A stretch of 64,000 nt of DNA from Escherichia coli (GTDB lineage Bacteria; Pseudomonadota; Gammaproteobacteria; Enterobacterales; Enterobacteriaceae). Every line of letters begins with the position of its first letter. The first letter of the stretch is position 1. Below are positions 30,100 through 55,438 of the stretch, one piece after another. The stretch lies in NCBI RefSeq assembly GCF_024223415.1, contig NZ_CP100500.1; one strand, written 5' to 3'. The translations under genes were made by a program, and so were the position numbers. Below the pieces are notes generated by a model. It made no database searches. It saw only the letters and a list, made by a program, of their open reading frames with translations, and was not told the DNA's origin.

Positions 30100-30158
30100 G
30101 CTGTATTCTCCATTCAGTTAAAGACGCGCTGATAGTTACCGCTACCAGTGCGTTTTGT

Positions 30159-30416: not shown

Positions 30417-30448
30417 ACTTTGAGAATCGAGTTTATGAGGTAGTTACT

Positions 30449-31399: not shown

Positions 31400-31410
31400 A
31401 TATTTCGATT

Positions 31411-32231: not shown

Positions 32232-32498
32232 AGTTTTATGTCCTTTGCAATATTTTGAATTCACCCCTTTTGAGAGGGCGGTCAGGCGCTCAAAACCGTG
32301 CAAAGTCGGCGGGCGTATTTCCCTTACGGGTATTGTATTAGCCTCACGCCCGACCATTGAATTCTCAATATCGTGGACATAAAAAATCCGCATGTCTGTC
32401 GGGTGCGGTTTCCGCTTTGCAAGGTGTTTTGAGCACCATGACGCGGAATATAGCCCCGTTAACGCGACATTGTCAAACTGAAGAATTTTACGGATAGC

Positions 32499-32540
32499 AA
32501 AAACCCCCGAACTGGTGAGGAACAGGGGTTTTTACTTTAC
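32499..32540. terminator. hairpin terminator downstream of the TIR-like gene; ~40-nt near-identical copy of the host acpS terminator
   Basis: aaaacccccgaactggtgaggaacaggggtttt versus 25203..25235 aaaacccccgaactggtaaggaacgggggtttt; stem and loop both conserved. Confidence 0.6.
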
Positions 32541-32613
32541 TACTGATTTCGCGGTACGCTGATCTCAAACAGACGAGATTATCACCAGACTTGTAAAGTA
32601 AGCAATGGGCGGA

Positions 32614-33357: not shown

Positions 33358-33410
33358 TGTGTTCCTGTAAAGTAAGCAATAGTTAACAAAGTTGCAACGA
33401 CAACGATCAC

Positions 33411-35477
33411 CTAATCTTTTCTGTAACGGTACGCCTCGAATCCTCCGGCGTTTAGTGGAATGCTCGTGGCCCAGTCAGGAACGGTTGCCAGTAACTGGCT
33501 GAGATGTTCTGCTGAGTAATCGGGTGAGTCAGGGGCCTCACTTATAATTTCATCGTGTACCGTCAGCACAATGCTGTAACCGGCATCTTCGATAAGCGGC
33601 ATGTTTCCGGCCAGAACGTCGCGGGCGGCCGCCTGGGTGACGTTCTCCACCAGCTTTCCGCCGTAGGTTTTGAGTCGTTGCCATTTACGCGAATAAGAGT
33701 TAACACCCATATAGGTGATATCCCCTTTTTCGATAACCGGAGACGGGTAGCATACAGCGCGTCCGGATGGTAGCTGTATGCGCAGCCACGCGCCATCGCG
33801 GCGGATTTTAAGATAACCGCAATACAATGTTTTTTGCGGTGTGGCGATTGCAGTGCGGACGGTGCGCTCCAGTTCGTACCAGAAATCGCAGGTCGCCGGG
33901 TGCGCCCTGCGCCACAGGCGCTTGAGCGAGTCACATGCGATGAATACACGCTCGGACAGGCCAAAGGTCGACTTACGTTTAACCGATTCGTCGTACCAGC
34001 TTTTCGCCTCGCGGATAACATCGCGGGGAATGTTTGGCAGTGCGGCGTTCGCCAGCTCGTCGAGATCGAGACCGTAAACCAGAGCAAAAGTGATGAAAGC
34101 CGATACACCACCTCCATAACCCAGACCGAGTTCCATGACTTTACCGATCTGACGCATGTGTTTATCAACATCATCTGGTGCAATATCGAAAGCTTTTGCA
34201 TACGCCAGTTTATATAAGTCCGGACCCGTTCCGGCGTCGTACTCTCTGAATGCATTCAGTTTCCATTCTTCTCCCGCCAGCCATGCCAGCATACGGCCTT
34301 CAATGTTCGACAAGTCACTTACCACCAGTTTTTTGCCTGTTGGCGCGATAATGCAGCCACGTAACGCTGAACTGGTTAGTTCCATGATATTGTCAAACAG
34401 CAGGTCTGCACATCCGGCTTTCAGTGCTTCGATGCCTTCGTCTATTTGTTCCTGTTTTAGTGAAGGGCGGGGAAGGTTCTGGGGCTGGAATAGCCGTCCG
34501 GCCCAACGACCGGTACGTGACGCCCCGCAGAACTGTAGCGTACCGCGTAAGCGCCCGTCGTGGCTTACGCCTTTCATCAGTGCCTTGTATTTACTGGTGC
34601 TGGTAGTACTGGCCTGCAGGCGGATAGCCAGCAGTTCTTTCACGGCAGATGGTAAATTGGGGTCGGCAATACGACGTTCCAGAGTACTGCGTTGCATGTC
34701 TGGTAGCTCCACACCGTAGGATTCAACAATGTGCTTAATCAACGCGTCCCGTTGTGTGGCTGCCTGCACTTCGCCATCAGTCATTTCCTGTGTACGCTTT
34801 GCCAGGCGCTTTTGCTCCTGGTCTACCGCTTCGATCGCAGCGCGCGCGAGTTGAATGTCCATGCAGACGCCCCGGTCGTTGATCTGCTGATCACGATGCC
34901 AGAGTGCCAGTTCTGTCCCCTGATAATTCCACTTCGGCAGACGTTTATAGACTTCGCGCATTGCCTCGATATCCAGTCCGGCGTAAGCAACAAAGCGCCG
35001 CCATTCTTCCGGGTGGGTTTTGCTGGTGGCCCGGCGCAGTTTGCTGTTTTTCGGGCGTGGTTTGCACAGTAGCTGAATTAGTGACTTGCCTTCTTTATCC
35101 TTCGCTTTGTCCTGCGGGACGCCCAGCACTTCGCAAAGAGCGCCCAGCGCCCCCGGAAGACCATGCGCCAGCGCCTGCACCATTGTGTCGCGCCAGCGTT
35201 CAGTAGCTGGTGACATGTCTGGCATACAATGACGAAGTATCGTGCGGTCAAAGTGCGAATTGTGCGCCCAAACCTCCACATCCGGGTTTTTGAGTGCGAG
35301 ACGTAATTCCGGGGGGATTTTTTCGCCTGCGGTCAGGTCCCACACCTGCACGGGATCGTTATTGATGGCCCAGGCAAAAAGCATAATTTCAGCGCCTTCT
35401 GCATATGCGTGGGTACCGTTTTTTATCGGTATTTCAGAGAAGGTTTCAAGATCGAGCCAGAGAATGTTTGCAGGCAA
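33411..35477 (-). CDS. family A DNA polymerase with 3'-5' exonuclease domain (phage-type)
   Basis: 688 aa; Exo I motif (LDLETFS), exo motif YAGLDI, polymerase motif B-like ([16 protein letters not shown]), motif C (TVHDEII). Confidence 0.8.
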
Positions 35478-35503
35478 AACAGGACCCTCCGTAAATTAAA
35501 CGG

Positions 35504-35990
35504 CTACAAAAAGCCCCTGACAGTGCAGGGGCGGGATTGATTTGAATTAACGAGGTAAGGCTGGTGGAATGTATCTGCCGATGCGGTCTTCTATGGTCGG
35601 CAGAATGCACATGCTGTCGCTGAAGCGGTCATGCAACTGGTAAACCAGTTTAGAATCCATTTTTTCGAGAGCAGGCATTAACTGCGCCCGCCAGATTTCG
35701 TTGATGCGCCGGAAGTTATGACAGACGGCGCGGAGATTGTTGATGAACATTTCCTTCTCTGCGTCAGTGACTTCTGTCTGTGTTTTCTGAATACGCTTTG
35801 TGCTGCCATTCCGATAGAAGCGTTCCTGAGCAGCAACAGCCTCATCCACGGTTGGATAGCACCCTACGTAAACGCTCTTCTCTCCGTTCCATGCGTAGGC
35901 TCTGTACGGGTTGTATTTGCTCCGGTGATGGTAAACCATCTTCGGCAGACACTCCCTGTGTGGCGCCAGTATCGTGGAGGATTGCTGGTG
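35504..35990. repeat. ~490-bp direct repeat, copy B (3' part of AntA-type gene + its terminator)
   Basis: See copy A. Confidence 0.85.
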
Positions 35991-36311
35991 CAGTTTGCGT
36001 TCGCACTCGATGAAGTATCGGCGGATCTGGCGGCCTTTTTCGTTGCGCTCCACCATCGCCAGTTCTTTGGCCGTGTCGAGGGTGAGGTGGTAGTCCTTAC
36101 AAAGAACATTTTTACGCTTTCCAGTTTTGGAAAACGTTACGATATAATCCTGATTTTCAACGAATTCATAGTCTGCAATTCGTGATGTAATCCACGCTGC
36201 AAACACTTTCCCTACCCCAAGGAATGCGTGCAGATCGCGAGCATTGCAGAGCAGGGTGGTTTCGTTGGCGATAGCGCCGTTGAAAACGGGGATGAGTTGA
36301 GTTGCCATCAC
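35547..36311 (-). CDS. AntA-type antirepressor-like protein with C-terminal AP2-like module (paralogue of 31455..32231)
   Basis: 254 aa; distinct N-terminal domain (NARDLHAFLGVGKVFAAWITSRI...) fused to the same ~147-aa C-terminal module as the BRO-N protein. Confidence 0.65.
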   Translation of the reverse strand: MMATQLIPVFNGAIANETTLLCNARDLHAFLGVGKVFAAWITSRIADYEFVENQDYIVTFSKTGKRKNVLCKDYHLTLDTAKELAMVERNEKGRQIRRYFIECERKLHQQSSTILAPHRECLPKMVYHHRSKYNPYRAYAWNGEKSVYVGCYPTVDEAVAAQERFYRNGSTKRIQKTQTEVTDAEKEMFINNLRAVCHNFRRINEIWRAQLMPALEKMDSKLVYQLHDRFSDSMCILPTIEDRIGRYIPPALPR

Positions 36312-36691
36312 AGTTACCTCTAACGGTGAAATTCACCGCCACCACTGAGTTGCAAATCTCATATGGGTGGCGAACTGACGAGGTTTGCAATACCGGCGTT
36401 AGAGGAAACCGGCGCGCCGAAGCGCCCCCGCCAGCCCGCCATAATGCGAACGTGGCAAAGCTTGCGACAATAAAAAAGACGCTGGCGCGTCTGGTGTCGC
36501 CCCTAACAATTCCGGGTTGCAAATCCCGATCTCCATTTGGGAGATTCGGTGAGCATAAACCGGAAGGGGGCGATGAGTCAATATCGGGGTAGCAGGGCGA
36601 CTGGGTGCTAACCAGAACAATACAGGTAGCTCCGGGCATATTCCCCTTTGCAAAAACACCCGGCGTTTAACCGGGCGTCTGTGAAGCAGGA

Positions 36692-37240
36692 TTAAATCAG
36701 TGCTTCAGCATCAGCACCTTCGCTGATATCGTCGAAATCGTCAGCGCTTGCCACTCCGCCGCCAGCGAATGCATCGCCGTCTCGCAGGAACTGGACTCCG
36801 CCGAGTGAGGCATTAATGCGTTTACCGAAATTATTGTCCTGTGCCCAGATATCGATAACGGCGTTTACATAGCACCCTGCATAGGGACGTCCATCAGCCT
36901 GAGTAAGTGGCGAACGATCGCGATCAAGAACAGCCGGGCGCGCTTTGTTAGCAGCATTCAGGAAGAAATTACCGGGGAAACCTTCATACTCTGCTTTTTC
37001 ATCGCCGTCATGCAGGCACAGATTGAGTTTCTTCTCCAGTTGGTTATAAACAGCCTCCCACTTCTCTCCCCATTTTTCCTTTGCGACCTGCTTCATTGCT
37101 TTACGGATTTCTTCCAGTTGTGGGTGTTCGGGAGACATTAAAAATACAGCGGAGAAACGCGGATCGCCTTCGCCGTTTACAGTTTTAGCTTCAAACAGCG
37201 CAGGAAAAGCCAGACGAACATTGTTCAGCTTCAGTTTCAT
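36692..37240 (-). CDS. phage single-stranded DNA-binding protein (DUF2815-like)
   Basis: 182 aa; MKLKLNNVRLAFPALFEAKTVNGEGDPRFSAVF... pattern typical of phage SSB of this family; acidic C-terminal tail. Confidence 0.6.
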   Translation of the reverse strand: MKLKLNNVRLAFPALFEAKTVNGEGDPRFSAVFLMSPEHPQLEEIRKAMKQVAKEKWGEKWEAVYNQLEKKLNLCLHDGDEKAEYEGFPGNFFLNAANKARPAVLDRDRSPLTQADGRPYAGCYVNAVIDIWAQDNNFGKRINASLGGVQFLRDGDAFAGGGVASADDFDDISEGADAEALI

Positions 37241-37255
37241 TATATGTCTCCTTAA

Positions 37256-38560
37256 TCAGATGAGGTCAGCGGCGAGCGCGTCGTCGGACACGTCATCGAA
37301 ATCATTTACAGGGTTAATATTGAGTGCGGGGCGCGGATCTGAATCAGGAACGACGGTGGGTTTACCGTCCGCTCGTGTTATCAGGGCCTCGACTTTTGGC
37401 CAGCGGCGCGGACTGGCTTTTTTGATGAGTTTTTCTGCTTTGGCAGGGCTAATCAGTTTAAAGTCGAAAACTTCTTCAGTTTTATACCTGAACTGATCCT
37501 TCAGAAGAGCTCGAGCTGCTTCCTCATCACTCCAGGTCCGGTTACCTTGTTTTCCTGTTACCAGTTTAAACCCCGGTACCGTATGCCCGGCATGGAGTTC
37601 ATTGTGAACCCGGTCACGTAGCGCTTTGCAAAAAGACTCAATCAGGTCAACATGGCTGTAAATGTCTGCCAGTTGTTCAGCGGTCAGTAGTGGTACACGC
37701 TTAACGGCATCTGCGAGTTGCTCGCCAACGGGTCTGCTCAGGTCAACGAAGTCGTCCGCAACGGCGTTAAGTCTGGCCTGTGCTTCTGCTGAACACAGCC
37801 CACCTTTTGCTTTACAGAAGAGGCACTGTTTCTCGCCTGGTGTGAAGTTTTCAGGTGGCAGGGTTTCGACGCCTTCGCAATCGGCGATGTTGAACATCAC
37901 GATCACACTGGCGGCAGCTTCCTGCGCCCGTTTGCCGAATGCCTGCAGTTCCTCCACCGTCAGGGACCACTCTGAAACGTGGTTAATCCGCGGCTGGTGG
38001 ATGAACAGGCGCACCGTCTCGAAGTCGTACAGAAGGCTGAACTGCTCGAGCACGCCCAGGGCATACAGCTGCAACTGCTCGTTCTGCTCAGCGTCGACAC
38101 GCACTCCCTTACCGTATTTCAGGTCGTGGATCTGCAGTTCGTTACCCGCGATGATTATGCAGTCGGCAGTTCCGAAAGAGTCTTCCACACCGACGATGTG
38201 GGAGAAGTCTACGCGTTGCTCAACCAGCAGCGTGTTGCCCTGTGCCAGTGACCAGACTGTATCAACATACCGGCCAACGGCTTCGACCATTTCCTCATCC
38301 ACCTGTGGGCCAGATGTATCATCAGGATTTGCGCGAAGGGGGTATGAGCCGAGAAACATAGAAACATTGCATCCGGCGTAGTGTTCCGGGTGACTTTGCC
38401 TGTTTCGCAGGACTTTTTCTGCAAGCGCGTGCGCCGCAGTACCTTCAACAGCAAAGGATGTTTCTTTGTCAGGCTGAGTGGACTCCAGCGCCAGACTGCC
38501 GCTACAACGCATCCATCTGTGGGCGGCTGATGGAGATAATTTTGCATGAACCTCGGGCAT
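37256..38560 (-). CDS. PD-(D/E)xK exonuclease, Cas4/RecB-like (DUF2800-like)
   Basis: 434 aa; nuclease motif (IHDLKYGKG), N-terminal Cys plus C-terminal CxxC cluster ([11 protein letters not shown]) suggests an Fe-S nuclease. Confidence 0.6.
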
Positions 38561-38562
38561 AA

Positions 38563-39486
38563 TTAACCCTCCAGCGCTTTTTCAGCAAGGGCTATCACGT
38601 CTGCGAGTTTATCGTCAGCGACTTCACCGAGTTTTCTGGCTCCCTGTTTTTCCAGAATGGCAATAGCTTCTGCCCGGTAACCGCCTTTTGCAAGCTGGAG
38701 GATCAACCCTTCGGCCTGTTTACGCAGTGCAGCAAAATCGGTCTGTTCGCCAGTATCTTCCACGGCATCACCACCAGTTTCGGTACCGCTTTTTGCTGCG
38801 TCTCTGCGTGCAAATTCTTCCTGCAGCTGAAGGTACTCAACACGGTTGATCTCGATATGGCCTTTTTTCAGCATCTCGTTCAACTTGCGTAAGGTGTGGA
38901 GTTCACTGGCTGCTGTGCCGGATACATTTTTGACGTAAAACGGCCCCGTGCGTTCTCCATCTTTGTTACTGGCCTTTTTCGGCTTAACTTCATCACGCCC
39001 ATCTGCAGGTGCATCAAGTAGCTGCTCGGCAAAAGCACGTCGCTCGCCGATAGTTGGCAGGTCGTCCCAGAACTTAAGAATGTTGCGGGACAGGTCCAGA
39101 AGAGCGGGTTTATGCAGTGCCCTGGCTCGTTTGACGCACTGCAATGTGCTGTCGAGAGCATCAATCTGAACTACTCGTTTATCACCTTCAGCATCACGGT
39201 AAGCAACAGCTCGTTGCAGCATGTCTTCAGTAACAGGGGTAGCTGACGGGTAGAAACCAGCCAGTGCGATAACGTCGCTGAACTCCAGATCATCCAGTGT
39301 CATTACCGCTTTATTTTCAGTTTCATCTGCTGTTTCGGTTGCTGTATCCCGACATTCCTGTACTTGTGAAATGGCGTCAGGATGCATAACAATACCTGAT
39401 GCCATTGTGCGGATAAGACGTTCAAGCAGCACATTATGTTGCGCCAGAAGTTGGTTATTAAGTTCGAGACTGGTTTCTAAGCTCAT
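38563..39486 (-). CDS. hypothetical phage early protein (307 aa)
   Basis: ORF in the leftward early operon; no motif recognised. Confidence 0.45.
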
Positions 39487-40266: not shown

Positions 40267-40890
40267 TTATCTTTTGCGGCGGTAAATACGATGTTCAATC
40301 ATGACCCCTACGATCTGTAAGGGGACATCTGCACTTCGTAGCACGGGATAGTCGGGATTCAGGGGGACCAGTTCAAAATCATCAACGCCGATACCCAACG
40401 GGCGGTATTTTTTGAAAGTGGCCTCATACCCGTTGTTCTTTGCAACGACGAATTCGCCAGGCATGGGGCATAAATCCGGGTCAATTATTACAATATCGCC
40501 TTCCTTAAACTCCGGTTGCATACTGTCACCATCTATCCGCAGGGCGAAGCAGGACTCAGGTACGTCGGAATCCGCGAGAACGTATTCCATATTTCCATCC
40601 ATGTCCGTAGCGTCTTTTGCTTCCGTTAGCGCACCGGCCTGTACGTAACTGAGGATCGGGATGCGGCGGGTACTTATTTCCGCCAGGGGCATTATATTCC
40701 TGCCATTTAAAAGCCAGTCGGGACTGCATTTCAGTGCCTTTGAAAGCTCTATGATGTTGCGGGGCTTCCGGGTCTTTCCGCTTTCAATAGTCTCAATGGA
40801 TTGCTGGCTGACCCCCGCGATTGCTGCAACTTCTGTTTGTGTCATCCCGAGTTCTGTACGGCGTGCTTTAAAGCGTTCTGCAAGTGACAT
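40267..40890 (-). CDS. CI-like prophage repressor (XRE HTH + S24 LexA-like peptidase domain)
   Basis: ORF 40267..40956; start at Met23 (MSLAERFKARRTELGMTQTEVAAIAGVSQQSI...) preceded by AGGGGG RBS; S24 motifs (GDSM...) in C-terminal half; divergent from cro. Confidence 0.85.
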   Translation of the reverse strand: MSLAERFKARRTELGMTQTEVAAIAGVSQQSIETIESGKTRKPRNIIELSKALKCSPDWLLNGRNIMPLAEISTRRIPILSYVQAGALTEAKDATDMDGNMEYVLADSDVPESCFALRIDGDSMQPEFKEGDIVIIDPDLCPMPGEFVVAKNNGYEATFKKYRPLGIGVDDFELVPLNPDYPVLRSADVPLQIVGVMIEHRIYRRKR

Positions 40891-40949
40891 GGTGTACCCC
40901 CTGATTCCTGATTTTTTGCTCTCCCTTATTAATACAATTTTTGTTGTAG

Positions 40950-40978
40950 TTGACAAACATCATTTATTGTCGCTAAAT
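40950..40978 (+). promoter_or_regulatory. PR-like promoter for cro (TTGACA-17 bp-CTAAAT) within the cI/cro operator region
   Basis: Consensus -35 TTGACA with 17-bp spacer and a -10-like hexamer ~30 bp upstream of the cro ATG; flanking short inverted repeats (tacaattt / aaattgta) may be operators. Confidence 0.5.
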
Positions 40979-47818: not shown

Positions 47819-47881
47819 CTGTTACGGCCAGGTTATTCGTCGTGACCAGGAAAGTGCATTAGCCTGTTGGGGGATAGATCA

Positions 47882-48349
47882 GTGAGCAGAGTCGCCGCGA
47901 TTATTTATGCTCTGGTTATCTGCATCATCGTCTGCCTGTCGTGGGCGGTCAATCATTACCGTGATAACGCCATCGCCTACAAAGAACAGCGTGATAAAAA
48001 AGTCAGTGAGCTGAAGCAGGCGACCGCCACCATTACTGACATGCAGCAACGCCAGCGTGCTGCTGATGTACTCGATGCTAAATACACGAAGGAGTTGGCT
48101 GATGCGAAAGCTGAAAATGATGCTCTTCGGCGCAAGCTTGATAATGGTGGTCGGGTGCTCGTCAAAGGAAAATGCTCTGTGCCATCCTCAGCCGAAACCT
48201 CCAGCGCCTCCGGCATGGGCAATGATGCCACCGTCGAACTCTCTCCAGTTGCTGGACGAAACGTTCTCGGTATCCGGGACGGAATCATCAGAGACCAGAC
48301 AGCACTGAGAACGCTTCAGGAATATATCAGGACGCAATGCCTTCGATGA
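47882..48349 (+). CDS. i-spanin Rz
   Basis: ORF 47867..48349; lambda Rz-like sequence ([33 protein letters not shown]...) beginning at a GTG aligned with lambda Rz Met1. Confidence 0.85.
48102..48308 (+). CDS. o-spanin Rz1 (lipoprotein, nested in +1 frame of Rz)
   Basis: ORF 48057..48308; start [21 protein letters not shown] with lipobox VVGC; proline-rich mature part ([16 protein letters not shown]). Confidence 0.8.
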
Positions 48350-48521
48350 TAGCGATAATTTTACTGATCATCCTTCACATCTGGCTCTGTAGACAGGGTG
48401 GTGATCACTTCTGGAGTGAATCCAGATTAAACATCTCATTGCTGATGCTTGAAGTTGAGCATCTGGCGCGCGGTAAGGGGCTGCGTTGAAATAAGAGCCA
48501 GTCATTAAAAATACCTGGATT

Positions 48522-48548
48522 TAGCCTCGCATTCGCGGGGCTTTTTAT
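48522..48548 (+). terminator. hairpin + T-run after Rz/Rz1
   Basis: agcctcgc-att-cgcggggct followed by TTTTTATT. Confidence 0.55.
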
Positions 48549-48550: not shown

Positions 48551-48776
48551 CCATTACAAAAGCCACTCCCTACAGAGTGGCTTTGATAATGGCTTATACC
48601 CTACACGGGATAACTTAACTGATATCCCTTTTAACGGATAAAGGTATTCAAGCCTGACACATCATGCGCTGTATCGTCGCCGTATTCCCGTATTAACAGA
48701 GACCGTAGCCCGACGGGGAACTCCTTCTGCGAGAGTGTGCGGGAATAATCAAAAACGATGCACACCGGGTTTTTAC
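48551..48776. repeat. ~225-bp direct repeat, left copy (DR-L)
   Basis: Near-identical to 50338..50562 (a few mismatches); weaker similarity continues ~70 bp further in both copies. Confidence 0.85.
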
Positions 48777-48899
48777 CGCGCTAATGATTCGCGGGTTTGT
48801 CCCTCATGCTCGCCAGTCCTGTGCGAGGGTGGAAGAAACAGGGCATGTATTCAGGAGCGTGCGACCGTGGTCGCACGGTATCTTTGTCAGGAGGTTTTG

Positions 48900-49760
48900 A
48901 TGAAAGAGTTGCAAAAAATTAATTCAATAATGGAAAGGTTAAGTGCTCTTGAGCGTAAGCTGGACGATTGTGGAAAGCTGTGTGTTGAAAAGCAAAATGA
49001 GCTTTACCGGGAATTTTTTACAATCGTAAGTGAGCTGATGCCAATTGTTAATAACTGCCTGATGACATCCAGATTTTTTAATGTCGATGCTACTACATCC
49101 AGAAAATTTTCTGTGAAAATTCAAGAAAGAGTTTCTGGTAGTGTGACAAGAGAGATGGCTGAACAGTTGGTGGCAATGAGCAATAAAACAAAAAGAAAAA
49201 AGGCATTGCTTGTAACAGCAAATCAGCTTTCAGGGCGCGTTGACTTTCAGGTCAGACAGGGTGGGCGTGTACTGGTAAATGATGCGTTCGTTGGACGTAG
49301 CTTTAGTCCTTACTCGATAAAATATGATGTTGATGCAGATGATCAGGATATCAGCATTTCCTGGAAATCTGAGACAGCAGGGATTGTATTAACAGCAGAG
49401 TTGTTGAGTGATGATAAAAATGATGTCCAGCATCATTTGGACGAAAAGAATCATATTTCTGAAATTTGTATGAAGCCACGCAGCGGAATGACTTTATTGT
49501 CACGCACTCTTGCTGCTGGCTTTTCTGCACCGGAAAAACGTGTGCTTCTGGTAGTGCCTGAAGATGCAGATATTCGACCACTGAATGGCTGTGATGTTAT
49601 TAGTGCAAAAACATTGCATACCCGCGTCATTCCTGTACCGGATGTGGTCATTATTGATGATGTTGAGAAATGCAAGTCTGTTTCCTCAACTGCCACAATC
49701 AAGCGAATTTTACGTTGTAGCACGTCGGCTGTTGTATTCCGGAAGCAGTTACATAACTAA
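48900..49760 (+). CDS. hypothetical protein (286 aa), first gene of AT-rich cassette
   Basis: ORF 48735..49760; probable start Met56 MKELQKINSIMERLSALERKLDD... with AGGAGG RBS; coiled-coil-like N-terminus; AT-rich codon usage unlike surrounding phage genes. Confidence 0.55.
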   Translation: MKELQKINSIMERLSALERKLDDCGKLCVEKQNELYREFFTIVSELMPIVNNCLMTSRFFNVDATTSRKFSVKIQERVSGSVTREMAEQLVAMSNKTKRKKALLVTANQLSGRVDFQVRQGGRVLVNDAFVGRSFSPYSIKYDVDADDQDISISWKSETAGIVLTAELLSDDKNDVQHHLDEKNHISEICMKPRSGMTLLSRTLAAGFSAPEKRVLLVVPEDADIRPLNGCDVISAKTLHTRVIPVPDVVIIDDVEKCKSVSSTATIKRILRCSTSAVVFRKQLHN

Positions 49761-49886: not shown

Positions 49887-50336
49887 ATGCAAGAAGAAGC
49901 AAATAAAATTCTTGTTGATTTATTGAAGAAGGCCAGCGATGGAATTGATTCCGCCATTGCATTCAGTCAGGCTCAGATTCCGGATGTTGTTCATCAGTTG
50001 CTGGTATGGAATATGGTTGATAGCCTGATTAAAACATTAATAGCCATTTCAACAATCCCTCTGGTTTTCTGGTTTATGAAGAAGCAGTGCCAAAGAGTTG
50101 AGACAGGTAAAATCGGTGATGAAGGATATTCATGGGAGAAGGGAAATCCCAAATACAGGCCGACAATGGTTTGGGATAGCAAAGGTGATATTAATCTTCT
50201 TATCGTGCCATTGGTTGGAGTTTTGACTATGTGGGGGATTTTTATTATTTGTGCAGTAACCAATATGACATGGTTAAAAATCTGGCTGGCACCTAAGTTA
50301 TATCTAATCGAATACGCAGCATCACTAATTAAATAG
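49887..50336 (+). CDS. hypothetical membrane protein (149 aa, two predicted TM helices), second gene of AT-rich cassette
   Basis: ORF 49839..50336; start MQEEANKILVDLLKK...; hydrophobic segments LIKTLIAISTIPLVFWFM and LLIVPLVGVLTMWGIFIICAV. Confidence 0.55.
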   Translation: MQEEANKILVDLLKKASDGIDSAIAFSQAQIPDVVHQLLVWNMVDSLIKTLIAISTIPLVFWFMKKQCQRVETGKIGDEGYSWEKGNPKYRPTMVWDSKGDINLLIVPLVGVLTMWGIFIICAVTNMTWLKIWLAPKLYLIEYAASLIK

Positions 50337-50337: not shown

Positions 50338-50562
50338 CCATTACAAAAGCCATTCGCTACAGAGTGGCTTTGATAATGGTTTATACCCTGTACGGGATAA
50401 CTTAACTGATATCCCTTTTAACGGATAAAGGTATTCAAGCCTGACACATCATGCGCTGTATCGTCGCCGTATTCCCGTATTAACAGAGACCGTAGCCCGA
50501 CGGGGAACTCCTTCTGCGCGAGTGTGCGGGAATAATCAAAAACGATGCACACCGGGTTTTAC
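50338..50562. repeat. ~225-bp direct repeat, right copy (DR-R)
   Basis: See DR-L. Confidence 0.85.
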
Positions 50563-50631
50563 TGTGCTGACAGACGCAGGGTTACTCTCATAGTCGCTTT
50601 TCCGGTGCGATGGTGGAAGAAACCGGGATGT

Positions 50632-50826
50632 TTATTCATCATCTATTTGGATTGATGTATATGCTCTCTTTTCTGACGTTAGTCTCCGACGGCAGGCTTC
50701 AATGACCCAGGCTGAGAAATTCCCGGACCCTTTTTGCTCAAGAGCGATGTTAATTTGTTCAATCATTTGGTTAGGAAAGCGGATGTTGCGGGTTGTTGTT
50801 CTGCGGGTTTTGTTCTTCGTTGACAT
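50632..50826 (-). CDS. YlcI/YnfO-family small prophage protein
   Basis: 64 aa; MSTKNKTRRTTTRNIRFPNQMIEQINIALEQKGSGNFSAWVIEACRRRLTSEKRAY... near-identical to remembered DLP12 YlcI. Confidence 0.8.
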   Translation of the reverse strand: MSTKNKTRRTTTRNIRFPNQMIEQINIALEQKGSGNFSAWVIEACRRRLTSEKRAYTSIQIDDE

Positions 50827-51023
50827 GAGGTTGCCCCGTATTCAGTGTCGCTGATTTGTATTGTCTGAAGTTGTTTTTACGTTAAGTTGATGCAGATCAA
50901 TTAATACGATACCTGCGTCATAATTTATTATTTGACGTGGTTTGATGGCGTAGATGCACGTTGTGACATGTAGATGATAATTATTATCATTTTGCGGGTC
51001 CTTTCCGGCATGTGGACCGTTAC

Positions 51024-51036
51024 GGGGCGTCGACCT
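51024..51036. other. cosN-like cohesive-end site
   Basis: ACGGGGCGTCGACCTCGCGGTTTTTCGCTATTTATGA is near-identical to the lambda left end GGGCGGCGACCTCGCGGGTTTTCGCTATTTATGA, ~220 bp upstream of the Nu1-like gene. Confidence 0.7.
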
Positions 51037-51252
51037 CGCGGTTTTTCGCTATTTATGAGATTTTTTGAGGGGGTGGTTGTTGTTTAATTGTTTGGTATAT
51101 CTAATTGATAAGTAAGGTGAAAATAAAATAAATACAACAACCTTACGATGTGCTTTGATGTCATTAATGTGAAAAAATTAAATGATATCAAATGGTTTTG
51201 TAAAAACACATGGTTGTTGTATCGCTTTTTATCGATGACTTATGGAGAGGAG

Positions 51253-51759
51253 ATGGCCTTTTTATTGAATAAAAGTGATATGGCCTCCTCCATCGGTATC
51301 TCTGTTCAGGCATTTGATAAATGGGGTGTTCCTCCTGTCGAGCGTCGGGGGAGGGAAGTTTTTTATGACGTTAAAACTGTACTGGAGATAGATCGCGAGC
51401 GGCGACAACACAATCATAGAACACCTGATGACGGGGGCGATCTGGAGGAAAGGCTGCTTCGGGCCAGAGCTGAACTGACAGAAGAACAGGCCGTAGCTCA
51501 AAAACTTAAAAATCAGGTAACCGAAGGTAAGCTCATCGATTCAGACTTCTGCGTTTTCGCCCTCAGCAAGCTGGCGATGGCATTGTCCAGTACGCTTGAT
51601 TCTATTCCGTTATCCATGCAGCGACAGTTCCCGGATTTAACGCCACGTCATCTTGACCATCTGAAAACCCTTATTGCGAAGGGCGCAAATCAGTGTGCGC
51701 GGGCAGGGGATAAATTACCGGATTTGCTGGATGAATATATCAGAGCAACAACTGAATAA
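51253..51759 (+). CDS. terminase small subunit (lambda Nu1-like)
   Basis: ORF 51148..51759; start MAFLLNKSDMASSIGISVQAFDKWG... (RBS GGAGAGGAG) aligns with lambda Nu1 N-terminus; C-terminal ...FPDLTPRHLDHLK... Nu1-like. Confidence 0.85.
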   Translation: MAFLLNKSDMASSIGISVQAFDKWGVPPVERRGREVFYDVKTVLEIDRERRQHNHRTPDDGGDLEERLLRARAELTEEQAVAQKLKNQVTEGKLIDSDFCVFALSKLAMALSSTLDSIPLSMQRQFPDLTPRHLDHLKTLIAKGANQCARAGDKLPDLLDEYIRATTE

Positions 51760-53659
51760 TCTGATGGCTGCCGTTTCGGTTGCGCTGCAGCCTCTGGTCA
51801 GGGTTGTACCGATGACGGCAGTTGAATGGGCTGATCAAAATTATTATCTGCCGAAAGAATCCTCATACGGTGACGGCGAATGGAAAACGCTGCCGTTCCA
51901 GATCGCCATCATGAACAGTATGGGGAATGATCAGGTCCGCACTGTTAATCTGATTAAATCTGCCCGTATTGGTTATACAAAGATGTTGCTGGGGGTGGTC
52001 GGGTATTTTATTGAGCATAAATCCCGAAACAGTCTGCTTTTTCAGCCCACGGATTCTGCCGCTGAAGATTTTATGAAGTCTCACGTGGAGACGACGATTA
52101 GGGACGTGCCATGCCTGAAAGACCTTTCCCCATGGCTGGGTCGTAAACATCGTGATAATACCCTCACGCTGAAACGCTTTTCATCGGGCGTCGGTTTCTG
52201 GTGCCTGGGCGGCGCTGCCGCCAAAAACTACCGTGAAAAATCCGTGGACGTGGTCTGCTATGACGAACTCTCATCGTTTGAACCTGATGTTGAAAAAGAG
52301 GGCTCGCCAACCCTGCTGGGGGATAAGCGTATTGAGGGCTCTGTATGGCCAAAATCCATTCGCGGCTCGACGCCTAAAATCAAAGGCTCCTGCCAGATCG
52401 AAAAAGCCGCTAACGAGTCGGCACATTTCATGCGTTTTTATGTGCCCTGTCCGCACTGTGGGGAGGAGCAGTATCTGAAATTTGGTGATGATGCCTCGGC
52501 TTTCGGTCTTAAGTGGGAGAAGAATAAGCCAGAAAGTGTTTTCTACCTTTGTGAGCATCATGGCTGTGTGATCCATCAGTCTGAGCTTGACCAGAGTAAC
52601 GGGCGGTGGATCTGTGAAAACACGGGGATGTGGACCCGTGACGGTCTGACGTTTTTCAGCGCCCGGGGTGATGAAATTCCGCCGCCGCGCTCCATCACTT
52701 TCCATATCTGGACGGCGTACAGTCCGTTCACCACCTGGGTACAGATAGTCTATGACTGGCTGGATGCACTGAAAGATCCCAACGGCCTGAAAACCTTTGT
52801 GAACACCACGCTGGGCGAGACCTGGGAAGAGGCCGTGGGCGAAAAACTCGATCACCAGGTACTGATGGATAAGGTTGTGCGTTACACGGCGGCGGTGCCT
52901 GCCCGGGTGGTTTATCTGACGGCGGGCATTGACTCGCAGCGAAACCGTTTTGAGATGTATGTCTGGGGATGGGCTCCGGGAGAGGAAGCCTTTCTGGTGG
53001 ATAAAATCATCATTATGGGACGTCCCGATGAGGAAGAGACGCTGTTACGTGTGGATGCGGCGATCAACAAAAAATACTGCCATGCAGACGGAACCGAAAT
53101 GACCATTTCCCGTGTCTGCTGGGACATCGGGGGGATCGATGGCGAAATCGTTTATCAGAGGTCAAAAAAACACGGTGTTTTCCGGGTGCTGCCGGTAAAA
53201 GGCGCATCTGTCTATGGCAAGCCGGTGATCACCATGCCAAAAACCCGCAATCAGCGGGGCGTGTATCTGTGTGAAGTGGGGACGGACACCGCAAAAGAAA
53301 TTCTCTATGCCCGTATGAAAGCCGCTCCCACGCCTGCGGATGAATCCACGTCGTATGCCATCCGTTTTCCTGATGATCCGGAGATTTTTTCGCAGACAGA
53401 GGCGCAGCAACTGGTCGCGGAAGAGCTTGTGGAGAAGTGGGAAAAAGGAAAGATGCGTCTGCTGTGGGATAACAAAAAGCGGCGTAACGAAGCGCTGGAC
53501 TGCCTGGTGTATGCCTACGCGGCATTACGTGTGTCCGTGCAACGCTGGCAGCTTGATCTGGCTGTACTGGCAAAATCCCGGGAAGAAGAGACGACCCGGC
53601 CAACCCTTAAAGAACTGGCAGCGAAGCTGTCCGGAGGAGTGAATGGTTACAGTCGCTGA
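51731..53659 (+). CDS. terminase large subunit (lambda gpA-like)
   Basis: ORF 51674..53659; start MNISEQQLNNL...; long colinear similarity to lambda A (TAVEWADQNYYLPKES..., FHIWTAYSPFTTWVQIV...). Confidence 0.92.
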   Translation: MNISEQQLNNLMAAVSVALQPLVRVVPMTAVEWADQNYYLPKESSYGDGEWKTLPFQIAIMNSMGNDQVRTVNLIKSARIGYTKMLLGVVGYFIEHKSRNSLLFQPTDSAAEDFMKSHVETTIRDVPCLKDLSPWLGRKHRDNTLTLKRFSSGVGFWCLGGAAAKNYREKSVDVVCYDELSSFEPDVEKEGSPTLLGDKRIEGSVWPKSIRGSTPKIKGSCQIEKAANESAHFMRFYVPCPHCGEEQYLKFGDDASAFGLKWEKNKPESVFYLCEHHGCVIHQSELDQSNGRWICENTGMWTRDGLTFFSARGDEIPPPRSITFHIWTAYSPFTTWVQIVYDWLDALKDPNGLKTFVNTTLGETWEEAVGEKLDHQVLMDKVVRYTAAVPARVVYLTAGIDSQRNRFEMYVWGWAPGEEAFLVDKIIIMGRPDEEETLLRVDAAINKKYCHADGTEMTISRVCWDIGGIDGEIVYQRSKKHGVFRVLPVKGASVYGKPVITMPKTRNQRGVYLCEVGTDTAKEILYARMKAAPTPADESTSYAIRFPDDPEIFSQTEAQQLVAEELVEKWEKGKMRLLWDNKKRRNEALDCLVYAYAALRVSVQRWQLDLAVLAKSREEETTRPTLKELAAKLSGGVNGYSR

Positions 53660-53849
53660 ACTGCAGGCGCTGCGTCAGGCGCGCCTTGATTTATTAACCG
53701 GTAAACGGGTGGTGTCTGTCCAGAAAGATGGTCGCAGAATTGAATATACGGCGGCTTCTCTGGATGAGCTTAACCGGGCGATCAATGATGCGGAGTCGGT
53801 ACTGGGGACAACCCGACGTCGCCGTCGTCCGCTGGGAGTGAGGTTATGA
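53643..53849 (+). CDS. head-tail joining protein (lambda gpW-like)
   Basis: 68 aa; ...LLTGKRVVSVQKDGRRIEYTAASL... matches lambda W. Confidence 0.88.
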   Translation: MVTVAELQALRQARLDLLTGKRVVSVQKDGRRIEYTAASLDELNRAINDAESVLGTTRRRRRPLGVRL

Positions 53850-55438
53850 AAAGAACGCCTGTCCTGATTGATGTGAACGGCGTTCCGCTTCGTGAGAGTC
53901 TCAGCTACAACGGGGGCGGCGCAGGATTTGGCGGGCAAATGGCGGAGTGGTTGCCACCGGCGCAGAGTGTCGATGCGGCCCTGCTGCCCGCGTTGCGTCT
54001 GGGGAATGCCCGGGCAGATGATCTGGTGCGCAATAACGGAATAGCGGCTAATGCGGTGGCCCTGCATAAGGATCACATAGTCGGGCATATGTTTCTGATC
54101 AGCTACCGTCCGAACTGGCGCTGGCTGGGGATGCGGGAGACCGCAGCAAAAAGCTTTGTCGATGAGGTGGAGGCGGCCTGGTCGGAATACGCCGAAGGGA
54201 TGTCTGGCGAGATCGACGTGGAAGGAAAACGCACGTTCACGGAATTTATCCGTGAAGGTGTGGGCGTTCATGCGTTTAACGGCGAAATCTTTGTGCAGCC
54301 GGTCTGGGATACGGAAACCACGCAGTTATTCCGTACGCGTTTTAAAGCCGTGAGTCCGAAACGGGTGGACACGCCTGGACACGGTATGGGGAACCGCTTT
54401 CTGCGGGCCGGGGTGGAGGTCGATCGGCATGGACGGGCCGTTGCGTACCATATCTGTGAGGATGATTTTCCGCTCTCTGGTAGTGGACGATGGGAACGGA
54501 TCCCGCGTGAACTTCCCACCGGGCGTCCGGCCATGCTGCATATTTTCGAGCCGGTTGAGGACGGGCAGACCCGTGGGGCTAATCAGTTTTACAGCGTCAT
54601 GGAACGGCTGAAAATGCTCGATTCCCTGCAGGCAACACAGCTTCAGTCAGCCATAGTGAAGGCGATGTATGCAGCGACGATTGAAAGTGAACTTGATACC
54701 GAAAAGGCCTTTGAATATATCGCCGGTGCGCCGGAGGGGCAGAAGGATAATCCGCTTATTAATATTCTGGAGAAGTTCTCCAGCTGGTATGACACGAATA
54801 ACGTGACACTGGGCGGTGTCAAAATTCCGCACCTTTTCCCCGGTGATGATCTGAAACTACAGACTGCGCAGGATTCAGACAATGGATTTTCTGCGCTTGA
54901 ACAGGCGCTGCTGCGGTATATCGCCGCCGGTCTTGGCGTTTCCTACGAACAGTTGTCCCGTGATTACTCGAAGGTCAGTTATTCAAGTGCCCGCGCCTCC
55001 GCCAATGAGTCGTGGCGCTATTTTATGGGGCGGCGAAAATTTATTGCGGCCCGGCTGGCCACGCAGATGTTTTCCTGCTGGCTGGAAGAGGCTCTTCTGC
55101 GGGGGATTATTCGTCCGCCACGGGCGCGTTTTGATTTTTATCAGGCGCGTTCATCCTGGTCACGGGCAGAGTGGATTGGAGCCGGAAGAATGGCCATTGA
55201 CGGGCTCAAGGAGGTCCAGGAATCGGTGATGCGCATTGAGGCCGGACTGAGCACGTATGAGAAAGAGCTGGCGCTGATGGGTGAGGATTATCAGGACATT
55301 TTCCGCCAGCAGGTCAGGGAATCTGCAGAGCGGGAAAAAGCCGGACTCTCACGTCCGGTGTGGATAGCGCAGGCGTATCAGCAGCAGATAGCGGCGAGTC
55401 GCAGGCCGGAAGAGGAGACAACACCACGTGAGACGTAA
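53846..55438 (+). CDS. portal protein (lambda gpB-like)
   Basis: 530 aa; extensive similarity to lambda B (GANQFYSVMERLKMLDSLQATQLQSAIVKAMYAATIESELDT...). Confidence 0.92.
   Translation: MKRTPVLIDVNGVPLRESLSYNGGGAGFGGQMAEWLPPAQSVDAALLPALRLGNARADDLVRNNGIAANAVALHKDHIVGHMFLISYRPNWRWLGMRETAAKSFVDEVEAAWSEYAEGMSGEIDVEGKRTFTEFIREGVGVHAFNGEIFVQPVWDTETTQLFRTRFKAVSPKRVDTPGHGMGNRFLRAGVEVDRHGRAVAYHICEDDFPLSGSGRWERIPRELPTGRPAMLHIFEPVEDGQTRGANQFYSVMERLKMLDSLQATQLQSAIVKAMYAATIESELDTEKAFEYIAGAPEGQKDNPLINILEKFSSWYDTNNVTLGGVKIPHLFPGDDLKLQTAQDSDNGFSALEQALLRYIAAGLGVSYEQLSRDYSKVSYSSARASANESWRYFMGRRKFIAARLATQMFSCWLEEALLRGIIRPPRARFDFYQARSSWSRAEWIGAGRMAIDGLKEVQESVMRIEAGLSTYEKELALMGEDYQDIFRQQVRESAEREKAGLSRPVWIAQAYQQQIAASRRPEEETTPRET

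What the first reader, a model, noticed from the sequence alone, without database searches (positions are those of the whole stretch)
51024..51036. cos site one mismatch from lambda cosN: accessory cassettes sit just inside the packaged right end
GGGCGTCGACCT versus lambda GGGCGGCGACCT, followed by conserved lambda-like flanking sequence. This orients the prophage map: the DR-flanked cassette and ylcI-like gene lie between Rz and cos and would be the last DNA packaged, a tolerant position for cargo.
Basis: partly seen in the sequence, partly recalled or inferred. Interest (0 to 1): 0.25.

Follow-up and report, generated by a model that had tools for sequence, protein, structure and literature searches.

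The report
Prophage cos site, N15/Monarch packaging type
This is the DNA-packaging cut site (cos) of a lambda-like prophage in an E. coli chromosome; it carries a rare one-base variant of the lambda sticky end and an N15/Monarch-type rather than lambda-type recognition site, which makes it an ordinary member of a well-studied class.

Summary
GGGCGTCGACCT lies at 51025-51036 (the finding's start is one base early) and is the only match within one mismatch of lambda cosN in the window. The 12-mer alone could be chance (24 of 100 shuffles). Its context is not: GGGTCCT (cosQ) lies 22 bp upstream, about 410 bp to the left is lambda's right end, the I2 spacer is conserved, and intact terS, terL, portal and head genes follow.

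Lambda similarity stops about 30 bp right of cosN. The recognition site cosB holds three GGTTGTTGT repeats in the lambda R3(+)/R2(-)/R1(+) layout. R3 matches phage N15's R3 at 11 of 12 bases. The TerS N-terminus, which by alignment includes the stretch opposite lambda Nu1's recognition helix, is near-identical to N15 gp1. This is the "Monarch-type" complex cosB described by Feiss and colleagues.

The G6T allele is rare: about 14 of 5,426 complete E. coli genomes and no deposited phage. It nevertheless occurs with four different cosB classes, so it is probably tolerated; cutting was not tested.

A repeat-flanked two-gene cassette and a ylcI-like gene do lie between Rz and cos, a stretch whose content varies widely among relatives. 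The same cassette sits there in the isolated phage PhiR46_1.

The parts
47867..48349 (+). Rz-like spanin gene, the last lysis gene (the ORF as listed; the true start may be further downstream)
   Evidence: Pfam PF03245 Phage_lysis, E 9e-29
48523..48542 (+). Terminator-like stem-loop after the lysis cassette, immediately before repeat copy 1
   Evidence: 8-pair stem with 6 GC pairs and a T-run; a consensus match only
48551..48843 (+). Direct repeat, copy 1 (223-nt core at 97% to copy 2, then a weaker 41-nt extension)
   Evidence: the repeat finder families D1 and D2
48900..49760 (+). Cassette ORF1, 286 aa, function unknown
   Evidence: phrog_2571, E 6.7e-164. No Pfam, NCBIfam or PADLOC match. 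100% identical protein in phage PhiR46_1
49887..50336 (+). Cassette ORF2, 149 aa, with hydrophobic stretches suggesting a membrane protein, function unknown
   Evidence: phrog_3054, E 6.2e-61; translation
50338..50627 (+). Direct repeat, copy 2
   Evidence: the repeat finder families D1 and D2. The single-copy equivalent lies upstream of ylcI in phages Turner, PhiR11_1 and mEp332
50632..50826 (-). ylcI/ynfO-like gene, 64 aa
   Evidence: Pfam DUF3950, E 1.7e-20; NCBIfam YlcI_YnfO_N; phrog_949
50996..51002 (+). cosQ (GGGTCCT), the packaging-termination signal, 22 bp from the top-strand nick
   Evidence: Exact match to the 7-bp block conserved at this position in all relatives; I identify it with lambda cosQ from my own recall. 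Spacing is 23 bp in 165 of 177 related sites and 22 bp in 7
51025..51036 (+). cosN cohesive-end sequence GGGCGTCGACCT. Predicted nicks lie between 51024/51025 (top strand) and 51036/51037 (bottom strand). G6T creates a SalI site at 51029-51034
   Evidence: The nick positions are inferred from lambda
51042..51074 (+). I2 spacer (bp 18-50). The critical bp 30-35 read TATGAG, against TATGAA in lambda and N15
   Evidence: Alignments; role of I2 from PMC4856287
51073..51086 (+). R3, the proposed critical TerS binding site (core GGTTGTTGT at 51075-51083, bp 51-59)
   Evidence: Repeat I7. Matches N15 R3 at 11 of 12 bases, shifted by +1 bp. Invariant in 9 distinct sequences of this class
51098..51110 (-). 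Candidate IHF site I1 between R3 and R2 (TATCAATTAGATA, one mismatch to WATCAANNNNTTR)
   Evidence: 4 sites with at most one mismatch in cosB, 0.7 expected. Its TTGATAA core is conserved across the class. Consensus match only
51134..51142 (-). R2, the inverted copy of the R core (ACAACAACC on the + strand, bp 110-118)
   Evidence: Repeats I1 and I7; invariant in the class
51212..51220 (+). R1, the third copy of the R core (bp 188-196)
51253..51759 (+). terS (Nu1 family), 168 aa. N-terminal DNA-binding domain of N15 type; C-terminal half 91% identical to PhiR12-type phages
   Evidence: PF07471, E 1e-20; tblastn; alignment with N15 gp1
51731..53659 (+). terL (gpA family), 642 aa, intact, overlapping terS by 29 bp
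   Evidence: GpA_ATPase E 9.6e-55 and GpA_nuclease E 2.9e-70; translation
53643..55438 (+). gpW-like head-tail adaptor gene (53643-53849) and lambda-family portal gene (53846-55438). The intact head and proximal tail module continues to at least 61341

Best explanation
This is the cos site of a lambda-like prophage in an E. coli chromosome. It has lambda's subsite order: cosQ, cosN, I2, then a three-part cosB (R3, a candidate IHF site, inverted R2, R1), followed by terS and terL.

Proposed mechanism, by analogy with lambda and N15:
1. After induction and rolling-circle replication, dimers of the TerS winged-helix domain bind the GGTTGTTGT repeats.
2. IHF bending between R3 and R2 lets one dimer dock on both repeats.
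3. This anchors TerL, which makes staggered nicks at 51024/51025 (top strand) and 51036/51037 (bottom strand). The result is a 12-nt 5' overhang, GGGCGTCGACCT.
4. The cosB-bearing end (terS side) is threaded into the prohead first.
5. Packaging ends at the next cos, where cosQ is needed. The Rz-cassette-ylcI-cosQ segment therefore enters last.

Packaging specificity is of the N15/Monarch class, not lambda's. The G-to-T change at bp 6 is a rare natural allele that probably does little to cutting. The Rz-cos interval is a cargo (moron) slot, here holding a repeat-flanked two-gene cassette of unknown function.

Shown here: the sequence anatomy, the homologies, and the population distribution of the allele. 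Inferred: binding, nick positions, packaging polarity, and neutrality of T6.
For: - Anatomy. cosQ-N22-cosN is unique in the window. There is 93.6% identity to lambda over 50615-51065. GGTTGTTGT occurs four times in the window, three of them within 146 bp in +/-/+ orientation at bp 51, 110 and 188.
- Conservation. All three repeats are invariant in 9 distinct sequences of this cosB class while the spacers vary.
- Specificity. N15 R3 is GAGGTTGTTGTT at bp 48-59, and scrambling bp 54-59 cut yield about 100-fold (PMC4669245; N15 sequence). The window has GTGGTTGTTGTT at bp 49-60. TerS residues 1-45 are about 85% identical to N15 gp1, with GISVQAFDKWGV identical. [quoted passage not shown]
- Integrity. 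terS, terL, W, portal, protease, D, E, FI, FII, Z, U, V and G homologues are intact and in lambda order.
- Tolerance of T6. It is present in about 14 of 5,426 complete E. coli genomes and 3 IMG/VR contigs. It occurs with four cosB classes and several left flanks. Bp 6 is also A in one locus, while bp 1-5 never vary in 65 distinct contexts.
- Cargo slot. Interval length and content vary among relatives. The same cassette lies between Rz and cos in the isolated phage PhiR46_1.
Against: - No virion-end data exist for this element.
- T6 is rare, and none of 50,697 deposited phage genomes carries it in a matching context.
- The cosQ-to-nick spacing is 22 bp instead of the usual 23.
- R3 sits 1 bp further from cosN than in N15.
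- The prophage runs off the window at 64000, so its completeness is unknown.
- The IHF sites are consensus matches with one mismatch each.
- I could not obtain the Monarch sequence for a direct comparison.
Confidence: 0.8

Rival explanations
1. This is a decaying, non-functional cos remnant of a cryptic prophage, like those of DLP12 or Qin in K-12. On this view the bp-6 change and the 1-bp deletion between cosQ and cosN are inactivating lesions.
For: - T6 lies in the functionally sensitive left half of cosN.
- It is rare, and no isolated phage carries it.
- The 22-bp cosQ spacing is unusual, seen in 7 of 177 sites.
- The rest of the prophage beyond 64000 is unseen.
Against: - Every cos subsite and all packaging and head genes in view are intact.
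- The identical cos sequence recurs in an independent IMG/VR contig, L006.
- T6 is found with four different cosB/TerS modules and several flanks, which is hard to reconcile with a dead-end lesion.
- The 22-bp spacing occurs in three other lineages.
- Bp 6 also varies to A.
Confidence: 0.12
2. This is the cos site of a phage-inducible chromosomal island (PICI) or another satellite that borrows a helper's terminase, not the cos of a self-sufficient prophage.
For: The same cosB class (all three repeats) occurs without a terS gene next to PICI rpp genes in L008, L017, L039, L114, L116 and L131.
Against: Here cos is followed directly by full-length terS, terL, portal and the complete head module. 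It is preceded by Q, lysis and immunity genes of a lambdoid prophage. There is no paired inverted cos in the window.
Confidence: 0.03
3. The match is a chance resemblance, or the T at bp 6 is a sequencing or assembly error in an ordinary lambda cosN.
For: The 12-mer alone is expected 0.29 times per window by chance.
Against: The flanks exclude chance. T6 is seen in independent assemblies: 3 IMG/VR contigs and about 14 complete E. coli genomes, often at several sites per genome.
Confidence: 0.02

Closest known systems
Bacteriophage lambda cos (cosQ-cosN-I2-cosB with R3, I1, R2, R1; Nu1 and A terminase)
   Same: Same subsite order and orientation. cosQ GGGTCCT is identical and 11 of 12 cohesive-end bases match. 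I2 is conserved to about bp 41. About 410 bp left of cosN is 94% identical. There are three R repeats in +/-/+ orientation, then Nu1-family terS and gpA-family terL that overlap by 29 bp.
   Different: The R sequence is GGTTGTTGT, not CGTTTCCGTTCTTC. The TerS N-terminal domain is unrelated in its recognition residues (37% identity overall). R2-R1 spacing is longer (78 bp against about 52 bp). Other differences: G6T in cosN, 22-bp rather than 23-bp cosQ spacing, and G18T.
Phage N15 cos and gp1 (simple cosB: a single R3 plus a remote rR2)
   Same: The R3 sequence matches at 11 of 12 bases at nearly the same distance from cosN. The TerS N-terminus including GISVQAFDKWGV is identical or near-identical. 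The same packaging specificity is therefore predicted.
   Different: N15 has only R3, with no IHF site, R2 or R1 and an rR2 inside gene 1. The window has three repeats upstream of terS and no copy inside terS. N15 cosN differs from lambda at bp 9 and 12 (GGGCGGCGTCCG), the window at bp 6. TerS is only 48% identical overall.
Monarch-group prophages (Feiss et al. 2015: N15-type R3 and recognition helix with a complex three-part cosB)
   Same: [quoted passage not shown]
   Different: A direct comparison with the Monarch sequence was not possible because the primary paper, PMC4461450, is not held. The T6 allele is not mentioned in the papers I could read.
cos2 of E. coli PICIs (EcCICFT073 family, Fillol-Salom 2018 and 2019)
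   Same: Some PICI variants (L008, identical to E. coli AR_0085; also L114 and L116) carry a second cos whose cosB has the same three GGTTGTTGT repeats as the window. In L008 it also has the same T6 cosN.
   Different: Those sites lack terS and terL, lie inverted 0.5-0.9 kb from an rpp-linked cos1, and belong to satellites. The window's site heads a full terminase and head operon.

Membership tests
Lambda-like cos site (sensu Feiss: 12-base 5' cohesive ends related to lambda's, with cosQ, cosN and cosB subsites) | cosN: a 12-bp sequence closely related to GGGCGGCGACCT, with conserved CG dinucleotides at both nick positions | tested here: met
   11 of 12 bases match. ACG|GGG and CCT|CGCGG are retained.
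Lambda-like cos site (sensu Feiss: 12-base 5' cohesive ends related to lambda's, with cosQ, cosN and cosB subsites) | cosQ: the 7-bp GGGTCCT about 23 bp upstream of the top-strand nick | tested here: met
   GGGTCCT at 50996-51002. Spacing is 22 bp, within the natural range of 22-24.
Lambda-like cos site (sensu Feiss: 12-base 5' cohesive ends related to lambda's, with cosQ, cosN and cosB subsites) | A conserved AT-rich I2 segment (bp 18-50) between cosN and R3 | tested here: met
   TTTTTCGCTATTTATGAGATTTTTT. Bp 30-35 match the critical block at 5 of 6 bases.
Lambda-like cos site (sensu Feiss: 12-base 5' cohesive ends related to lambda's, with cosQ, cosN and cosB subsites) | A TerS binding site (R3) about 48-65 bp from bp 1, adjacent to Nu1-family terS and gpA-family terL | tested here: met
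   R3 core at bp 51-59. PF07471, PF05876 and PF20454 hits.
Lambda-like cos site (sensu Feiss: 12-base 5' cohesive ends related to lambda's, with cosQ, cosN and cosB subsites) | Terminase actually nicks here, giving 12-nt 5' cohesive virion ends | not testable with these tools
   Needs virion DNA end mapping.
Lambda packaging specificity (cosB-lambda with Nu1-lambda) | R sequences of the CGTTTCCGTTCTTC type and the Nu1 recognition helix of lambda | tested here: not met
   Similarity to lambda ends near bp 41. The R core is GGTTGTTGT, and the TerS N-terminus differs.
N15/Monarch packaging specificity | R3 closely matching N15 GAGGTTGTTGTT (bp 48-59), with bp 54-59 GTTGTT the most important | tested here: met
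   GTGGTTGTTGTT at bp 49-60, 11 of 12 with a +1 bp shift.
N15/Monarch packaging specificity | A TerS recognition helix identical to that of N15 gp1 | tested here: met
   GISVQAFDKWGV is identical. Residues 1-45 are about 85% identical. Helix boundaries are taken by alignment to lambda Nu1, not from a structure.
N15/Monarch packaging specificity | Packaged by N15-specific terminase but not by lambda or 21 terminase | not testable with these tools
   Needs helper-packaging assays like those in PMC4669245.
Monarch-type complex cosB (as opposed to the N15 simple cosB) | Three R sequences with R2 inverted relative to R3 and R1, and no rR2 inside terS | tested here: met
   Cores at 51075 (+), 51134 (-) and 51212 (+), with no copy in 51253-51759.
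Monarch-type complex cosB (as opposed to the N15 simple cosB) | [quoted passage not shown] | tested here: inconclusive
   TATCAATTAGATA at 51098-51110 (minus strand) has one mismatch to the consensus and a core conserved in the class. No binding data.
Monarch-type complex cosB (as opposed to the N15 simple cosB) | Sequence identity to the Monarch prophage cos itself | not tested
   The Monarch sequence and the primary paper were not available.

The most novel reading that the evidence does not exclude
Two linked readings go beyond 'an ordinary cos'.

(1) The conserved cosQ-cosN-I2 core acts as a recombination joint. The T6 allele travels with a right-end module and has been joined to at least four cosB/TerS specificity modules. 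It is also shared between co-resident prophages and PICIs. In E. coli AR_0085, the prophage cos and both cos sites of a PICI carry T6. If so, cosN alleles spread horizontally within a cell's set of lambda-like elements, and functional constraint on the cohesive end covers bp 1-5 rather than bp 1-6.

(2) The window's three-repeat N15/Monarch cosB is reused, without terS, as the second cos ('cos2') of some PICIs. Other variants of the same PICI carry other genuine phage cosB classes at that position. This suggests cos2 is a swappable, Rpp-independent handle matched to one helper class. Prophages like this one would then be direct helpers. That would bear on the published open question of why some PICIs have two cos sites.
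Probability: 0.3. Interest if true: 0.45.

Novelty: new member of a known kind. Interest (0 to 1): 0.17.

Why it matters
For the window itself, this fixes the prophage map. It separates the late and lysis arm from the head arm, predicts the virion ends, and predicts that lambda or phage 21 terminase will not package this phage while an N15-type terminase will.

It adds one documented natural exception at bp 6 to the rule that the left half of the lambda-type cohesive end is invariant. The change also creates a SalI site, which offers a simple assay for joined ends.

It confirms that the Rz-cos interval is a cargo slot, here holding a two-gene cassette of unknown function that a viable phage also carries.

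None of this changes how cos sites are understood. The wider interest lies only in the side observations on cosN allele sharing and on PICI cos2 sites.

Tried and rejected
- **Literature search for the 12-mer.** A full-text search for GGGCGTCGACCT found 0 papers.
- **T6 in deposited phages.** A 69-bp blastn found nothing closer than PhiR5_1, which has G6. A 55-mer megablast centred on T6 found no match in 50,697 phage records.
- **T6 across species.** A scan of 100,044 species-representative genomes with a 19-mer gave only 13 hits. All were in high-GC non-enteric genomes (Cellulomonas, Myxococcales, Micromonospora and others), which I take as chance matches of a GC-rich word. It showed nothing about cos.
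- **Cassette function.** Pfam, NCBIfam and PADLOC gave nothing for ORF1 or ORF2. Only PHROG families of unknown function matched. I ran no further search on them, since they are peripheral to the cos finding.
- **Papers not held.** Feiss et al. 2015, Virology (PMC4461450, which describes Monarch), and Wieczorek and Feiss 2001 (PMC1461673, cosQ) were unavailable. I did not look up Xu and Feiss 1991 (cosN mutants). I therefore could not check whether G6T was ever made in the lab.
- **Readings rejected.** A lambda-specificity cos is ruled out because the cosB and TerS domain differ. A PICI cos is ruled out because terS, terL and head genes follow. Chance or sequencing error is ruled out by the flanks and by independent assemblies. 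A cryptic remnant is kept as a minor rival.
- **tRNA scan.** A scan for an att-linked tRNA found none in the window. I did not pin down attL.

Full report

GGGCGTCGACCT lies at window 51025-51036 on the + strand. The finding's start, 51024, is one base early. It is the only site in the window within one mismatch of lambda's GGGCGGCGACCT.

The 12-mer alone proves little. About 0.29 such matches are expected per window, and 24 of 100 shuffles produce one. The context settles it:
- The composite GGGTCCT-N22-GGGCGKCGACCTCGCGG occurs once and in no shuffle.
- Window 50615-51065 aligns to lambda's right end, cosN and the first ~29 bases of the left end at 93.6% identity.
- The host backbone is E. 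coli: lepA-lepB-era-recO-pdxJ at about 99% identity.

**2. Anatomy of the site**

Numbering takes 51025 as bp 1.
- **cosQ.** GGGTCCT lies at 50996-51002, 22 bp from the predicted top-strand nick. The usual spacing is 23 bp (165 of 177 related sites). A 22-bp spacing occurs in this sequence, in its twin L006, and in three other lineages.
- **I2.** The spacer (bp 18-50) is conserved, including 5 of 6 bases of the block (bp 30-35) shown to be critical in lambda (PMC4856287).
- **End of lambda similarity.** Similarity stops near bp 41.
- **cosB.** From there the region holds three copies of GGTTGTTGT: 51075-51083 (+), 51134-51142 (-) and 51212-51220 (+). These are three of only four copies in the 64 kb. 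They repeat lambda's R3(+)/R2(-)/R1(+) layout.
- **IHF candidate.** An IHF-consensus match with one mismatch lies between R3 and R2, at 51098-51110 on the minus strand. Four such matches occur in cosB against 0.7 expected.
- **Terminase genes.** terS starts at 51253 (Nu1 family, E 1e-20). terL starts at 51731 (gpA ATPase and nuclease domains) and overlaps terS by 29 bp.
- **Downstream genes.** Homologues of W, portal, protease, D, E, FI, FII, Z, U, V and G follow, intact and in lambda order.

In nine distinct sequences of this cosB class, all three repeats are invariant while the spacers differ. That is the pattern expected of binding sites.

**3. Which packaging specificity?**

Feiss et al. 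(PMC4669245) place N15's critical R3 at bp 48-59, GAGGTTGTTGTT. Scrambling bp 54-59 lowered yield about 100-fold. The N15 sequence confirms this. The window has GTGGTTGTTGTT at bp 49-60, which is 11 of 12 identical and shifted by one base. The same paper says changes of one or two bp in this distance are tolerated in lambda.

The TerS N-terminus is near-identical to N15 gp1:
- window: MAFLLNKSDMASSIGISVQAFDKWGVPPVERRGREVFYDV
- N15: MAVLLNKSDMASSLGISVQAFDKWGVQPVEKRGREVFFDV

GISVQAFDKWGV is identical. By alignment it lies opposite the recognition-helix region of lambda Nu1. The rest of the protein is diverged, at 48% identity overall. The C-terminal half, which binds TerL, is instead 91% identical to PhiR12-type phages.

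The same papers describe a "Monarch" group of prophages. [quoted passage not shown] The window matches each of those descriptors. I could not compare it with the Monarch sequence itself.

I therefore classify this as a lambda-like cos of N15/Monarch specificity. It is not a lambda-specificity cos. This cosB-plus-terS type is common, occurring in 256 of 5,426 complete E. coli genomes, for example in Qin-like prophages.

**4. The bp-6 variant**

*How rare it is.*
- Two 55-mers centred on T6, which only T6 sequences can seed in megablast, hit 6 and 13 complete E. coli genomes, about 14 in total. Many are from poultry, and there are often 2-5 sites per genome.
- No deposited phage genome has it, and no searchable paper contains the 12-mer.

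*Why it is probably tolerated.*
- T6 is joined to four cosB classes: lambda type (TUM1886, L001); N15/Monarch type (window, L006, L007, L008 cos2); a CATGTCCGG type with yet another TerS N-domain (AR_0085 prophage, L170); and the rpp-linked PICI type (L008 cos1).
- It also occurs with a different right half, GGGCGTCAGGCG (L134). One locus has A at bp 6 (L139).
- Across 65 distinct contexts, bp 1-5 never vary, apart from one frame-shifted and one spurious match (L136, L146). Bp 6 varies at low frequency. Bp 7-10 and 12 vary freely, for example GGGCGGAAGGCG in the isolated phage PhiR46_1.

Feiss et al. state that the left half is under selection and the right half is not. These data suggest the boundary lies between bp 5 and bp 6. 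My reading is that T6 is a tolerated allele carried on a ylcI-cosQ right-end module that has recombined, within the conserved cosN-I2 core, onto different cosB/terS modules. This is inference. Cutting efficiency was not and cannot be tested here.

**5. The cargo claim**

Between Rz (ends 48349) and cosN lie, in order:
- a small ORF (48337-48489, which overlaps the end of Rz) and a terminator-like hairpin (48523-48542);
- a direct repeat of about 290 bp (48551-48843 and 50338-50627, core 97% identical). It brackets ORF1 (48900-49760, phrog_2571) and ORF2 (49887-50336, phrog_3054, with hydrophobic stretches suggesting a membrane protein). Both are on the late-operon strand;
- a minus-strand ylcI/ynfO-like gene (50632-50826, DUF3950).

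No defence-system or other functional family matched the cassette.

The Rz-to-cos interval differs widely among relatives:

| Element | Interval | Content |
|---|---|---|
| PhiR5_1 | about 0.37 kb | none annotated |
| CAU16175 | 0.5 kb | one hypothetical gene |
| Turner, PhiR11_1 | 1.1 kb | bor and small ORFs |
| lambda (DE3) | 2.1 kb | bor, p78, p79 |
| PhiR46_1 | 2.4 kb | the same cassette |
| 2013C-4282 | 2.6 kb | cspI, ymcF, ynfN, gnsB, ylcI |
| This window and TUM1886 | 2.7 kb | the cassette and ylcI |

PhiR46_1 is an isolated, plaque-forming phage. It carries the same repeat-flanked cassette at 95% DNA identity, with ORF1 100% identical as protein. So the position does tolerate this cargo.

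The claim that this stretch is packaged last follows from the polarity of lambda-type packaging: the cosB end enters first and termination occurs at cosQ-cosN. That polarity was not measured here.

**6. Mechanism and rivals**

The most likely mechanism is the lambda/N15 one set out under Best explanation. I put confidence at about 0.8 that this is the working-type cos of the prophage with N15/Monarch specificity.

- **Main rival (about 0.12):** the site is crippled. The grounds are that T6 lies in the sensitive half, the cosQ spacing is 22 bp, and the tail end of the prophage is unseen.
- **PICI cos:** excluded by the adjacent terminase and head operon.
- **Chance or sequencing error:** excluded by the flanks and by independent assemblies.

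**7. Novelty**

This is a new member of a known kind. Everything about the architecture has been described by the Feiss laboratory. The bp-6 allele appears undocumented in the literature I could search, but it is a minor polymorphism. Interest is low, about 0.17.

**8. Side observations outside the window**

The sample of cos sites was collected with cosN and I2 patterns. In it, each phage-type cosB class occurs in two states:
- alone and followed by terS, as in a phage or prophage;
- without terS, inverted 0.5-0.9 kb from a second cos that is followed by a small winged-helix gene.

In CFT073 the second arrangement is the published EcCICFT073 cos1-rpp-cos2. The CFT073 cos2 has a CATGTCCGG-type cosB. 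The variant in L008, which is 100% identical to E. coli AR_0085, has the window's three-repeat N15/Monarch cosB instead. Both of its cos sites carry T6, as does a resident prophage of another cosB class in the same genome.

[quoted passage not shown] These data suggest that cos2 is a swappable copy of a genuine helper-class cosB. This was only partly followed up and is offered as a lead.

Noticed in passing
L008 9535-10305; L169 (CFT073) 1556-2306; also L017, L019, L027, L035, L038-L040, L087, L091, L101, L112, L114, L116, L117, L131: Many contigs carry two lambda-like cos sites in inverted orientation, 0.5-0.9 kb apart, with their cosB sides facing each other. One cos is followed by a small winged-helix gene (rpp-like or terS-like). 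The other has a cosB class that elsewhere precedes terS in phages (N15/Monarch, CATGTCCGG, CATGTCGG or CAGATCCG types) but here has no terS. In CFT073 this is the published EcCICFT073 cos1/cos2. The cos2 cosB class differs between PICI variants, which suggests a swappable handle specific to one helper class.
   Followed up: partly
E. coli AR_0085: L170 3524 (prophage cos) and NZ_CP029741.1 3797676-3798556 (PICI identical to L008); also strains Ch1, GF4, PKF4, PKF11, 135 and B771: The rare T6 cosN allele tends to occur at several sites in the same genome (up to 5), in elements with different cosB classes. Examples are a prophage and both cos sites of a PICI. Many of these strains come from poultry or birds. 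This suggests cosN alleles are exchanged among co-resident lambda-like elements.
   Followed up: partly
L133 (phage PhiR46_1) 6293-6304; 12 IMG/VR loci such as L135, L137 and L142-L145: There is a second common natural cohesive-end variant, GGGCGGAAGGCG. It has five changes, all in bp 7-12, with lambda-type cosQ, I2 and cosB. L150 has GGGCGGCAGGCG, L134 has GGGCGTCAGGCG, and L139 has GGGCGACGACCT.
   Followed up: partly
window 32614-33357 (-): A 247-aa protein with a CAP12/Pycsar-effector TIR domain (PF10137, E 5.6e-31) sits in the prophage's early-left region. It has weak, sub-threshold hits to CBASS Cap12 models. It may be a prophage-borne defence or NADase gene.
   Followed up: no
window 27938-39486 (-): The early-left operon is unusual for a lambdoid prophage. 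It includes an SNF2-family helicase (27938-29332), a family A DNA polymerase (33411-35477), a DUF2800/PD-(D/E)XK nuclease (37256-38560), and AntA and Bro-N domain proteins. A CI-like S24 repressor lies at 40267-40956 (-).
   Followed up: no
window 26341-27744 (+): An integrase-family ORF (weak Pfam hit, E 7.8e-7, TTG start) lies at the chromosome-prophage border, on the strand opposite to the early-left genes. Window 18000-27000 is contiguous at 99% or more in some E. coli strains (for example A16), so related elements occupy the same site. attL was not located, and there is no tRNA in the window.
   Followed up: no
window 48551-48843 and 50338-50627: The ~290-bp direct repeat bracketing the cassette corresponds to a segment that is single-copy upstream of ylcI in phages Turner, PhiR11_1 and mEp332. 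It starts right after a terminator-like hairpin (48523-48542). In TUM1886 the same cassette lacks the left repeat copy. Homologous recombination between phages sharing this segment, rather than transposition, looks like the likely origin.
   Followed up: partly
window 50791-50799: A fourth GGTTGTTGT copy lies 234 bp left of cosN, inside the ylcI-like ORF. It is also present in lambda at the homologous position, so it is probably coincidental.
   Followed up: no
window 51023-51038: The terminator scan flags cosN plus the I2 T-run as terminator-like (CGGGGCGTCGACCTCG followed by CGGTTTTTCG). I read this as a by-product of a short GC-rich inverted repeat next to the T-rich start of I2.
   Followed up: no
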